Assembly: GCF_013167455.1 (NCBI RefSeq)
Contig: NZ_CP038328.1
Direction: 5' to 3' (one strand)
Origin: Escherichia coli O157:H7
GTDB taxonomy: Bacteria > Pseudomonadota > Gammaproteobacteria > Enterobacterales > Enterobacteriaceae
Length of the DNA stretch: 64,000 bases
Positions 1 through 6,966 of this stretch are shown here, in pieces; positions within the stretch are counted from its first letter, which is position 1; each line of letters opens with the position of its first letter. The position numbers and the translations under genes are program-made. The notes beneath the pieces are model-generated. The model was not told the origin of the DNA. It ran no database searches and worked only from the letters and a program-made list of their open reading frames with translations.

Positions 1-794
1 CAGCGCGAAAGATAAGGTGCCAATCCTTCTTGTTCGAAGAGTTCCAGCGCCGCGCGTAATTCACGTATTAGCATGGCCGCCAACGTATTACGATCGAGAT
101 TGATCCCCGCTTCCTGCAGCGTGATCCACCCCTGATTAACGACACTCTCTTCAACACGACGCATTGCCATGTTGATCCCGGCTCCAATGACTATTTGCGC
201 CGCATCGCCGGTTTTGCCAGTCAGCTCCACAAGAATGCCTGCCAGCTTGCGATCCTGCAGATAGAGGTCATTAGGCCATTTGACACGAACTTTATCTGCT
301 CCCAGCTTGCGTAATACTTCCGCCATCACGATACCGATAACCAGACTTAAACCAATCGCCGCCGCCGGGCCTTGTTCCAGACGCCAGAACATCGACAAAT
401 ATAAGTTTGCGCCAAAAGGCGAAAACCATTTCCGACCCCGGCGACCACGGCCAGCCTGCTGGTATTCTGCAACGCAGGCATCGCCCGATTTAAGCTCTCC
501 GATACGATCAAGAAGGTACTGATTCGTGGAGTCAATCACTGGCAGCACAGTTACACTACCGCCATCCAGCTGACCCAATATCTGTTCAGCATTAAGTAAC
601 TGGATAGGCTCAGGCAGGCTGTATCCTTTACCCGGAACGGTAAAGACATCAACGCCCCAGTCACGCAGTGTCTGAATGTGTTTATTAATAGCCGCCCGGC
701 TCATTCCTAACGTTTCACCCAACTGCTCACCTGAGTGAAATTCGCCATTCGCTAACAGCGCGATTAATTTCAGTGGCACGGTGTTATCCTTCAT
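1..794 (-). CDS. birA: biotin-[acetyl-CoA-carboxylase] ligase / bio operon repressor BirA, N-terminal part (3' end beyond window start)
   Basis: Minus-strand frame from ATG at 794-792, overlapping the murB stop, translates [50 protein letters not shown], recognised as the BirA N-terminus; not in the ORF track because it runs off the window. Confidence 0.9.
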
Positions 795-1819
795 GAAATT
801 GTCTCCACTGCGCTCACTTCACCTGATGCACCAATAAAGCGGACTTCAGGCTCAAGCCAGACATTAAATTTTTCACCCACTTTTTGTCTTACATGGTGTG
901 CCAGTTGCACCACATCTTCGCTTTTTGCATTGTCTTCATTAATGAGAACTAACGCCTGTTGACGGTGCACCGCAACCCCACCCATTTGCATCCCTTTTAG
1001 CTGGCACTGATCGATAAGCCAACCTGCTGCCAGTTTTACTGAACCATCCGCCTGGGGGTAATTTGGTGCTGTTGGAAATTGTGACAGTAATGCTTTAGCC
1101 GTTTCGGCAGATACAACAGGGTTTTTGAAGAAACTACCGGCATTGCCATTCACTTTTGGATCAGGGAGTTTGGTGGTGCGCATATGACACACCGCATCAA
1201 ATACTTGCTGTGGCGTTACTGTTGTAGGATCCAGACGAGTTAAGTCACCATACGTTAGTACAGGTTGCCACTCTTTTGGCAGACGCAGACCTACGGCTAC
1301 AATGGCGAAGCGGTCCTGGTATTCATGTTTAAAAATACTGTCGCGATAGCCAAAACGGCACTCTTTGGCAGTTAAGCGCACTTGCTTGCCTGTCGCCAGT
1401 TCAACACAATCAACATAAGCGCAAACTCGCTGTAATTCTACGCCATAAGCACCAATATTCTGGATAGGTGATGAGCCGACACAACCAGGAATTAATGCCA
1501 GATTTTCCAGACCAGGCATACCTTCCTGCAAAGTGTATTTTACCAGGCGATGCCAGTTTTCTCCGGCTCCTACATGTAAATACCACGCATCAGGTTCATC
1601 ATGAATTTCGATACCTTTGATCCGGTTGATGATCACCGTGCCGCGATAGTCTTCCAGAAAAAGTACATTACTTCCTTCACCCAGAATAAGAACGGGTTGC
1701 CCTTCTGCGGTTGCATGCTGCCAGGCATTGAGTAGTTGTTGTTCGTCTTCGGCACATACAATGTGCTGAGCATTATGATCAATGCCAAATGTGTTCCAGG
1801 GTTTTAAGGAGTGGTTCAT
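791..1819 (-). CDS. murB: UDP-N-acetylenolpyruvoylglucosamine reductase
   Basis: 342-aa [33 protein letters not shown]; position between rrn operon and birA. Confidence 0.95.
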
Positions 1820-1912
1820 AGCTGCTTTCCTGATGCAAAAACGAGGCTAGTTTACCGTATCTGTGGGGGGATGGCTTGTAGTTATGACGACAGGGAGAGT
1901 TTGTAGAAACGC

Positions 1913-1939
1913 AAAAAGGCCCAGTCTTCCGACCGGGCC
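1913..1939 (-). terminator. rho-independent terminator downstream of 5S rRNA
   Basis: On the minus strand GGCCCGGTCGGAAGACTGGGCC hairpin followed by TTTTTGCG, immediately 3' of the 5S gene. Confidence 0.7.
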
Positions 1940-1953
1940 TTCTGCTTAATTTG

Positions 1954-2073
1954 ATGCCTGGCAGTTCCCTACTCTCGCATGGGGAGACCCCACACTACCA
2001 TCGGCGCTACGGCGTTTCACTTCTGAGTTCGGCATGGGGTCAGGTGGGACCACCGCGCTAAGGCCGCCAGGCA
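1954..2073 (-). rRNA. rrfB: 5S ribosomal RNA
   Basis: 120-nt reverse-complement match to E. coli 5S (TGCCTGGCGGCC...GGAACTGCCAGGCAT). Confidence 0.97.
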
Positions 2074-2165
2074 AATTCTGTTTTATCAGACCGCTTCTGC
2101 GTTCTGATTTAATCTGTATCAGGCCGAAAATCTTCTCTCATCCGCCAAAACACCTTCGGCGTTGT

Positions 2166-5070
<2,905 letters not shown>

Positions 5071-5263
5071 TCACAACCCGAAGATGTTTCTTTCGATTCA
5101 TCATCGTGTTGCGAAAATTTGAGAGACTCACGAACAACTCTCGTTGTTCAGTGTTTCAATTTTCAGCTTGATCCAGATTTTTAAAGAGCAAATATCTCAA
5201 ACATCACCCGAAGATGAGTTTTGAGATATTAAGGTCGGCGACTTTCACTCACAAACCAGCAAG

Positions 5264-5339
5264 TGGCGTCCCCTAGGGGATTCGAACCCCTGTTACCGCC
5301 GTGAAAGGGCGGTGTCCTGGGCCTCTAGACGAAGGGGAC
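5264..5339 (-). tRNA. gltT: tRNA-Glu in the 16S-23S spacer
   Basis: Reverse complement GTCCCCTTCGTCTAGAGGCCCAGGACACCGCCCTTTCACGGCGGTAACAGGGGTTCGAATCCCCTAGGGGACGCCA, 76 nt. Confidence 0.97.

Positions 5340-5424: not shown

Positions 5425-6966
<1,542 letters not shown>

What the first reader, a model, noticed from the sequence alone, without database searches (positions are those of the whole stretch)
1911..1953. Single terminator directly abutting the 5S gene, differing from the rrnB T1-T2 arrangement I recall
The 5S 3' end is followed at once by CAAATTAAGCAGAAGGCC-CGGTCGGAAGACTGGGCC-TTTTTGCGTTTCTAC. The flanks resemble the K-12 rrnB T2 context while the hairpin arm (GAAGACTGGGCC) resembles T1, as if the T1-to-T2 interval had been collapsed by recombination. 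This rests on memory of the K-12 sequence and may simply be normal inter-operon variation.
Basis: partly seen in the sequence, partly recalled or inferred. Interest (0 to 1): 0.2.

Follow-up and report, generated by a model that had tools for sequence, protein, structure and literature searches.

The report
Ordinary O157-type rrnB transcription terminator
The single hairpin right after the 5S rRNA gene is the normal transcription stop signal of the rrnB ribosomal RNA operon in E. coli O157:H7; it differs from the two-terminator K-12 layout, but about half of all E. coli genomes share the one-terminator layout, so it is ordinary.

Summary
On the minus strand the 5S gene (1954-2073) is followed at once by CAAATTAAGCAGAA, a 9-bp G+C-rich stem with a GGAA loop (1918-1939) and UUUUUGCGUUU. 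murB starts 134 nt after 5S, against 300 nt in K-12. Relative to K-12 the window lacks one 168-bp repeat period (T1 hairpin, interval, 18-nt 5S-end remnant). Its single hairpin has a T1-type stem between T2-type flanks.

It is not unusual. The window is 100% identical to O157:H7 genomes, and the exact 70-mer occurs once each in 364 complete genomes. Only 2,521 of 5,426 E. coli genomes (46%) have the K-12 long form at rrnB-murB.

K-12 itself has single hairpins directly after 5S at rrnG and rrnE, and carries the T1-T2 module at rrnA, rrnB and rrnD. O157 is short at rrnA, rrnB and rrnE but long at rrnD.

E. whittamii shows the same short form with a T1-like stem in T2-like flanks, and E. albertii has the same hairpin type. 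Salmonella, Kluyvera and Klebsiella indica have the long form. The polymorphism is therefore old and recurrent, and is best explained by gene conversion or unequal exchange among rrn operon ends, not a recent collapse in this strain. Interest is low.

The parts
1954..2073 (-). 5S rRNA gene rrfB, the last gene of the rrnB operon (16S 5425-6966, tRNA-Glu 5264-5339, 23S 2166-5070, all on the minus strand)
   Evidence: Rfam 5S_rRNA at 1956-2071(-), 93.2 bits. The 120-nt ends were set by alignment to the annotated MG1655 rrfB. tRNA-Glu in the spacer. RefSeq annotation under the match is 'rrf' plus 'murB'.
1940..1953 (-). 14-nt segment CAAAUUAAGCAGAA between the 5S 3' end and the core stem. Its first bases are single-stranded and its last six bases (1945-1940) extend the stem. 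It is the expected position of the 3' RNase E processing cut of the 9S precursor (inferred).
   Evidence: Sequence. Unpaired up to 1946 in the MFE fold. The same CAAAUUA(A/U)GC motif follows 5S at K-12 rrnG, rrnH and rrnC and precedes T2. The 9S substrate used in the literature runs from upstream of 5S into the first terminator hairpin (primer sequences in PMC2948425). The cut site itself is from my knowledge and was not tested.
1918..1939 (-). Core terminator hairpin: 5' arm GGCCCGGUC (1939-1931), GGAA tetraloop (1930-1927), 3' arm GACUGGGCC (1926-1918). It has 9 pairs: 7 G-C, 1 A-U and 1 G.U.
   Evidence: Fold with z = -4.3. In 9 natural alleles 117 of 117 pair cells are standard pairs and 3 pairs show changes on both sides. 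The window's G.U pair is intermediate between A-U (K-12, ST131) and G-C (E. albertii).
1911..1945 (-). Full extended hairpin: the A-rich 5' flank GCAGAA pairs with part of the U tract and GC
   Evidence: MFE structure, -26.1 kcal/mol
1906..1917 (-). U-rich tract UUUUUGCGUUUC immediately 3' of the stem, the expected release site for RNA polymerase
   Evidence: Sequence. Identical to the tract after K-12 rrnB T2.
1820..1905 (-). Rest of the rrfB-murB spacer, colinear with the K-12 sequence downstream of T2. The whole spacer is 134 nt here and 300 nt in K-12.
   Evidence: Alignment A1. No sigma-70-like site was found by the simple scan.
791..1819 (-). murB (342 aa), the next gene downstream and co-directional with rrnB. 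It anchors the operon's identity as rrnB.
   Evidence: ORF list. RefSeq annotation of the identical O157:H7 sequence as murB.

Best explanation
This is the intrinsic (Rho-independent) terminator of the rrnB operon in its O157:H7 allele. Shown: the transcript of 16S-tRNA-Glu-23S-5S runs into a 9-bp G+C-rich stem with a GGAA loop, followed directly by UUUUUGCGUUU. The stem is kept paired across natural alleles through wobble and compensatory changes. Inferred from the established mechanism of intrinsic termination: hairpin formation in the exit channel, together with the weak rU-dA hybrid, releases RNA polymerase about 134 nt before murB. Also inferred: the same hairpin forms the 3' stem of the 9S precursor, which RNase E trims just after 5S. 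In evolutionary terms the window carries the 'short' state of a common two-state polymorphism of enterobacterial rrn 3' ends. The 'long' state, as at K-12 rrnB, rrnA and rrnD, has one extra 168-bp repeat period made of the T1 hairpin, an interval and an 18-nt copy of the 5S end. Stems and flanks are mixed among operons and strains. This is most simply explained by gene conversion and unequal exchange between the near-identical rrn operon ends (inferred). In the genus Escherichia the short state at rrnB, with a T1-type stem in T2-type flanks, appears older than E. coli itself.
For: Anatomy and stability. Identity to O157:H7 and annotation as rrf/murB. The exact 70-mer occurs in 364 genomes, once per genome in the rows listed. 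The long form at rrnB-murB is present in 2,521 of 5,426 genomes. An evenly spaced sample gave 21 colinear and 18 longer rows. K-12 has single hairpins directly after 5S at rrnG and rrnE, and the T1-interval-remnant-T2 module at rrnA, rrnB and rrnD. O157 is short at rrnA and rrnE and long at rrnD. No interval motif occurs anywhere in the 64-kb window. The same polymorphism at rrnD-yhdZ splits 3,240 long against about 2,180 short. Mosaic alleles: N2512 is short with an exact T2 stem, and 90-3040 is long with a T2-type stem in T1 flanks. ECOR29 has a cassette one base from the window's at rrnE. Outgroups: E. whittamii, Escherichia sp. E1V33 and 'E. coli' E69 are short, and E. albertii has the same hairpin type. 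Salmonella diarizonae, Kluyvera gsp. 3 and Klebsiella indica are long, and many other genera are short. Stem covariation: 100% of cells paired, 3 of 500 shuffles reach this, and slid registers give at most 62%. The 168-bp repeat period.
Against: Termination activity was not measured, and the consensus terminator scan did not flag the site. The covariation set is small (9 related sequences), and three of the pairs counted are A-U/U-tract extensions. The polarity argument rests on a few outgroup genomes. One of them (E. albertii) is broken by a contig end just 5' of the hairpin, and concerted evolution can erase history. The long form in Salmonella, Kluyvera and Klebsiella indica also fits a long-form ancestor with repeated losses. 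I assigned phylogroups to strains from my own knowledge, not from a test.
Confidence: 0.9

Rival explanations
1. A deletion in the O157 lineage or a near ancestor. A K-12-like T1-interval-T2 region at rrnB collapsed by recombination or replication slippage between the two copies of AACTGCCAGGCATCAAAT or between the two GGCCTTT motifs.
For: The missing DNA is exactly one 168-bp period of a direct repeat. The product predicted for a crossover in the 18-nt repeat exists in nature: N2512 has 5S followed directly by an exact T2. Long forms occur in Salmonella, Kluyvera and Klebsiella indica, so a long ancestor is possible at greater depth.
Against: The window's stem is T1-type while both flanks are T2-type, so no single crossover between K-12 T1 and T2 produces it. 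E. whittamii has the same arrangement and E. albertii the same hairpin type. About 54% of E. coli genomes are short at this junction. A near-identical cassette sits at rrnE in ECOR29.
Confidence: 0.08
2. The short form is an assembly artefact caused by collapse of repeated rrn-end sequence.
For: rrn operons are classic assembly problems, and many draft contigs break at this spot.
Against: The exact sequence recurs in 364 complete, independently assembled genomes, and the short state in about 2,900. It is contiguous with unique murB sequence within 134 nt.
Confidence: 0.01
3. The allele has functional consequences. With one terminator instead of two, more rrnB transcription reads through into murB-birA, which would couple cell-wall and biotin-ligase expression to growth rate in short-form lineages.
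For: murB is co-directional and only 134 nt downstream, and the simple scan found no promoter-like site in the spacer. The window's hairpin is predicted weaker than K-12 T1 (-26.1 against -32.6 kcal/mol) though stronger than T2 (-22.7).
Against: No expression data. K-12 rrnG and rrnE manage with single hairpins. Both states are common and switch repeatedly, which suggests near-neutrality.
Confidence: 0.07

Closest known systems
E. coli K-12 rrnB T1 terminator (first hairpin after rrfB; the same type follows rrfA and rrfF)
   Same: The stem-loop is the same type: GGCYCRGUC-GRAA-GACUGGGCC. The window matches K-12 rrnA/rrnD T1 at 20 of 22 positions, has the same GGAA loop, and sits in the same position directly after 5S.
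   Different: The flanks differ. T1 has AUAAAACGAAA...UUUCGUUUUAU, which extends the helix to about 20 bp (-32.6 kcal/mol). The window has AAGCAGAA...UUUUUGCG (-26.1 kcal/mol). Two 5'-arm substitutions turn a U.G pair into C-G and an A-U pair into G.U.
E. coli K-12 rrnB T2 terminator
   Same: Both flanks are identical: CAAATTAAGCAGAAGG on the left and CCTTTTTGCGTTTCTACAAACTCT on the right. The whole downstream spacer to murB is colinear.
   Different: The T2 stem is GGCCAUCC-UGAC-GGAUGGCC. In K-12 it is preceded by an 18-nt 5S-end remnant, not by a real 5S gene.
K-12 rrnG and rrnE 3' ends (a single hairpin directly after 5S)
   Same: Same architecture: 5S, about 14 nt, one hairpin, a U tract, then unique DNA.
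   Different: The stem sequences differ: rrnG has the T2 type and K-12 rrnE has CCCCGGUCC-AUAA-GGCCGGGG.
rrnB ends of ST131, E. whittamii and E. albertii, and the ECOR29 rrnE end
   Same: The same cassette, a T1-type stem in T2-type flanks. In ST131, E. whittamii and ECOR29 it lies directly after 5S; the E. albertii contig breaks just 5' of it.
   Different: One to four substitutions or a 1-nt shorter U run, with the stem kept paired.

Membership tests
Intrinsic (Rho-independent) terminator | Stable G+C-rich stem-loop in the nascent RNA | tested here: met
   9-bp stem with 7 G-C pairs and a GGAA loop. MFE -26.1 kcal/mol, z = -4.3.
Intrinsic (Rho-independent) terminator | U-rich tract immediately 3' of the stem | tested here: met
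   UUUUUGCGUUUC starts at the base after the stem. The rule-based scan missed it, probably because of stem extension into the U run.
Intrinsic (Rho-independent) terminator | Location at the 3' end of a transcription unit | tested here: met
   It lies directly after the last rrnB gene, 5S, and before murB.
Intrinsic (Rho-independent) terminator | Structure maintained by selection (pairing conserved through sequence change) | tested here: met
   117 of 117 cells paired in 9 alleles, 3 pairs with changes on both sides, and slid registers give 62% or less. The sample is small.
Intrinsic (Rho-independent) terminator | Measured transcript 3' ends or termination efficiency | not testable with these tools
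   No transcriptome or in vitro data are available here.
K-12-type rrnB T1-T2 tandem terminator region | Two successive terminator hairpins after 5S | tested here: not met
   Only one hairpin lies between 5S and murB. The spacer is 134 nt against 300 nt in K-12.
K-12-type rrnB T1-T2 tandem terminator region | A ~165-bp interval with an 18-nt 5S 3'-end remnant between the hairpins | tested here: not met
   Absent in alignments A1-A3. Three interval motifs are absent from the whole window on both strands.
K-12-type rrnB T1-T2 tandem terminator region | T2-proximal flanks and a colinear spacer to murB | tested here: met
   The flanks are identical and the downstream spacer has 2 substitutions.
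T1-type rrn hairpin (GGCYCRGUC-GRAA-GACUGRGCC) | Stem and loop sequence of that type | tested here: met
   20 of 22 positions identical to K-12 rrnA/rrnD T1. The differences keep pairing.
9S precursor 3' processing region (RNase E site just after 5S) | Single-stranded A/U-rich segment between the 5S 3' end and a 3' stem-loop | tested here: inconclusive
   CAAAUUAA is unpaired in the predicted fold and is followed by the hairpin. The 9S substrates in PMC2948425 end in the first terminator hairpin. Cleavage itself was not tested.

The most novel reading that the evidence does not exclude
The one-hairpin or two-hairpin state of rrn operon ends could be a selected, lineage-specific regulator of read-through rather than neutral churn. 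In that reading, short-form lineages such as O157:H7 at rrnB would tie murB-birA expression to rRNA transcription differently from K-12. The T1-type stem at rrnB might also resist conversion to the long form, because it lacks the right-hand homology that a T2-type stem provides.
Probability: 0.05. Interest if true: 0.3.

Novelty: already known. Interest (0 to 1): 0.08.

Why it matters
It matters little for biology. The sequence is an ordinary rRNA operon terminator and is already present in hundreds of public O157:H7 genomes. There are three practical points. First, K-12's famous rrnB T1-T2 arrangement, used in countless vectors, is not the species norm at this locus: it is present in 46% of complete E. 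coli genomes. Second, the 3' ends of rrn operons are a mosaic of exchangeable stems and flanks, which is a clear small example of concerted evolution reaching past the rRNA genes. Third, differences from K-12 in this region should not be read as rearrangements or assembly errors.

Tried and rejected
1. The consensus terminator and promoter scan of 1500-3500 found no terminator and no promoter. I treat this as a limit of the rule set, not as evidence against the hairpin.

2. I looked for a recognisable RNA gene or pseudogene in the K-12 T1-T2 interval, to test the idea of a degraded second 5S. Only sub-threshold Rfam hits appeared, and they merely reflect the T1 hairpin on the opposite strand. 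The only 5S-derived part I can show is the 18-30-nt repeat.

3. I expected ECOR29-type matches (query positions 1-59 of the ST131 allele) to be a long-form T1 with a T2-like left flank, which would be an intermediate for a single crossover. They turned out to be a short-form cassette at rrnE, so no such intermediate was found.

4. The identity bands from the ST131-allele query are confounded by short 100% partial matches, so I did not use them as a census.

5. Four literature searches (searches failed on term length) found no paper in the held library that describes natural variation of rrn 3' ends in E. coli. They returned mostly vector papers. PMC6735719 gave only context: murB-birA-coaA lie between rrnB and tufB.

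6. An assembly artefact was rejected on the identity counts.

Full report
**What is there**

The window's first 7 kb holds birA (partial), murB (791-1819) and a complete rRNA operon, all on the minus strand. The operon consists of 16S (5425-6966), tRNA-Glu (5264-5339), 23S (2166-5070) and 5S (Rfam 1956-2071; 1954-2073 when aligned to the annotated MG1655 rrfB). A Glu-type spacer followed by murB identifies the operon as rrnB, and RefSeq annotates the identical sequence as rrf and murB.

Its parts are:

- Stem: GGCCCGGUC (1939-1931) pairs with GACUGGGCC (1926-1918).
- Loop: GGAA (1930-1927).
- U tract: UUUUU (1917-1913), followed by GCGUUUC.
- Extension: the A-rich left flank extends the helix to 1945-1911.

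The fold is -26.1 kcal/mol against -13.9 +/- 2.8 for shuffles, z = -4.3. The rule-based terminator scan did not flag it. I attribute that to the stem extension using up part of the T run.

**Comparison with K-12**

MG1655 rrnB reads as follows:

- 5S;
- T1 (CAAATAAAACGAAAGGCTCAGTCGAAAGACTGGGCCTTTCGTTTTAT);
- an interval;
- AACTGCCAGGCATCAAAT, a copy of the last 13 nt of 5S plus the next 5 nt;
- T2 (TAAGCAGAAGGCCATCCTGACGGATGGCCTTTTTGCGTTTCTAC);
- murB.

The window lacks T1's flanks, the interval and the remnant. Its spacer is 134 nt against 300 nt in K-12. The extra K-12 DNA is one 168-bp period of a direct repeat (L002 145-174 and 313-342).

The window's single hairpin has T2's left and right flanks, but its stem matches the K-12 rrnA/rrnD T1 at 20 of 22 positions.

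**Is it unusual? No.**

- The region is 100% identical to E. coli O157:H7 genomes. The exact 70-mer spanning the 5S end, the hairpin and the flank occurs in 364 complete genomes, at a single place in each of the rows listed (median 1 place per genome). About 1,200 more genomes are within a few mismatches.
- A query needing the interval, T2 and murB together is covered at 80% or more in only 2,521 of 5,426 genomes (46%). The rest align from the 5S end straight into the hairpin. An evenly spaced sample gave 21 colinear rows against 18 rows with a ~165-bp longer span.
- Single hairpins abutting 5S occur in K-12 itself at rrnG (T2-type stem) and rrnE (its own stem). The whole T1-interval-remnant-T2 module is shared by K-12 rrnA, rrnB and rrnD.
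- In O157:H7, rrnA and rrnE are short with a T2-type stem, while rrnD keeps the long module. None of three interval motifs occurs anywhere in the 64-kb window.
- The same ~168-bp polymorphism segregates at rrnD-yhdZ, with 3,240 genomes long and about 2,180 short.

**Mosaicism**

Stems and flanks occur in many combinations:

| Strain / locus | Form | Stem and flanks |
|---|---|---|
| N2512 rrnB | short | exact T2 stem, the product expected from a crossover in the 18-nt repeat |
| ST131 rrnB | short | perfect T1-type stem |
| 90-3040 rrnB | long | first hairpin has a T2-type stem with an inverted loop, in T1 flanks: the reciprocal chimera of the window's |
| ECOR29 rrnE | short | cassette one base different from the window's rrnB terminator |

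This pattern is what concerted evolution would produce, that is, gene conversion and unequal exchange between near-identical operon ends. The process itself is inferred and was not observed.

**Polarity**

A degenerate murB N-terminus pattern recovered the junction from 69 species-representative genomes, which I classified.

- E. whittamii: 5S is followed directly by CAAATTAAGCAGAAGGCTCAGTCGAAAGACTGAGCCTTTTTGCG. This is the short form with a T1-like stem in T2-like flanks.
- E. albertii: AAGCGAAAGGCCCGGTCGAAAGACCGGGCCTTTTTGCGTTTCTAC. The contig breaks just 5' of it.
- Escherichia sp. E1V33 and 'E. coli' E69: short, with T2-type stems.
- Salmonella diarizonae, Kluyvera genomosp. 3 and Klebsiella indica: long module.
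- Enterobacter JUb54 and Raoultella ornithinolytica: two hairpins with other spacers.
- E. cloacae, K. michiganensis, Kluyvera cryocrescens, Leclercia, Citrobacter 18056 and others: short.

Both states are therefore old and have switched repeatedly. Within Escherichia the short state at rrnB, including the 'chimeric' cassette, appears to predate E. coli. K-12's long form at rrnB is more likely the derived or converted state. I hold this with moderate confidence, about 0.6, because concerted evolution can overwrite history and the outgroup sample is small.

**Function**

The cassette has every sequence feature of an intrinsic terminator. Across nine natural alleles every one of 117 pair cells is a standard pair, with three pairs changed on both sides. 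Only 3 of 500 shuffles reach this, and slid registers pair at 62% or less. The window's G.U pair is the intermediate between A-U (K-12, ST131) and G-C (E. albertii). Predicted stabilities are:

| Hairpin | MFE (kcal/mol) |
|---|---|
| K-12 T1 | -32.6 |
| Window | -26.1 |
| K-12 T2 | -22.7 |
| K-12 rrnE | -22.0 |

From the established mechanism I infer that the hairpin plus the U tract releases polymerase before murB. I also infer that the hairpin is the 3' stem of the 9S precursor, which RNase E trims just after 5S. The 9S substrates used in the literature run into the first terminator hairpin (PMC2948425). The cleavage position comes from my own knowledge and was not tested. Termination efficiency and read-through into murB were not testable here.

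**Known or new**

The element is an ordinary member of a long-known class, and its sequence is already in hundreds of public genomes. I found no paper in the held library that describes the long/short polymorphism explicitly.

**Verdict**

Novelty: already known. Interest: about 0.08.

Noticed in passing
window 2058-2059 (minus strand, 5S positions 15-16): 5S polymorphism near the 5' end. The window and ST131 read GGCCTTAGCG, K-12 and 90-3040 read GGCAGTAGCG, and N2512 reads GGCCGTAGCG (alignment A1). This is ordinary 5S heterogeneity.
   Followed up: no
L081 11381-11626 and L082 9182-9427 (O157:H7 PV15-279 rrnE and rrnA ends): O157 rrnE and rrnA end with the same short T2-type terminator plus a REP-like flank. 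O157 rrnE is followed by yjaB with no yjaA, whereas K-12 rrnE has a different hairpin and yjaA.
   Followed up: partly
L008 / L083 (rrnD-yhdZ junction): The same ~168-bp long/short polymorphism exists at rrnD: 3,240 of 5,426 genomes are long and about 2,180 short. O157:H7 and O55:H7 are long there although O157 is short at rrnB, rrnA and rrnE.
   Followed up: partly
L005 236-290 (strain 90-3040 rrnB): A long-form allele whose first hairpin is GGCCATCC-GTCA-GGATGGCC, a T2-type stem with the loop inverted relative to T2's TGAC, set in T1's right flank. It is the reciprocal chimera of the window's terminator.
   Followed up: no
L084 467-515 (ECOR29 rrnE end): CAAATTAAGCAGAAGGCCCAGTCGGAAGACTGGGCCTTTTTGCG, one base different from the window's rrnB terminator, sits at a different operon upstream of yjaB.
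   Followed up: yes
row H58 (E. coli Nissle 1917): Nissle 1917 has only one place matching the K-12 interval-T2-murB query, and that match is only the part shared with the short form. The interval module therefore seems absent genome-wide there. Places per genome for this query range from 1 to 12.
   Followed up: no
(summary lines): 30-44 matches to 5S and terminator queries lie on plasmids in complete E. coli assemblies. They may be vector-derived rrnB T1-T2 cassettes or plasmid-borne rrn fragments.
   Followed up: no
window 5078-5186 (minus strand): Rfam StyR-44 hit (122.9 bits) between tRNA-Glu and 23S. It lies in the 23S leader part of the rrn spacer, so I take it to be spacer sequence rather than a separate gene.
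   Followed up: no
L035 (Raoultella ornithinolytica) and L041 (Enterobacter sp. JUb54), upstream of murB: These two-hairpin rrnB ends have intervals unlike the E. coli one. Raoultella has a shortened interval that still ends in CGCCATAAACGGCCAGGCATCAAAT, and JUb54 has an unrelated spacer between a T1-type and a T2-type hairpin.
   Followed up: no
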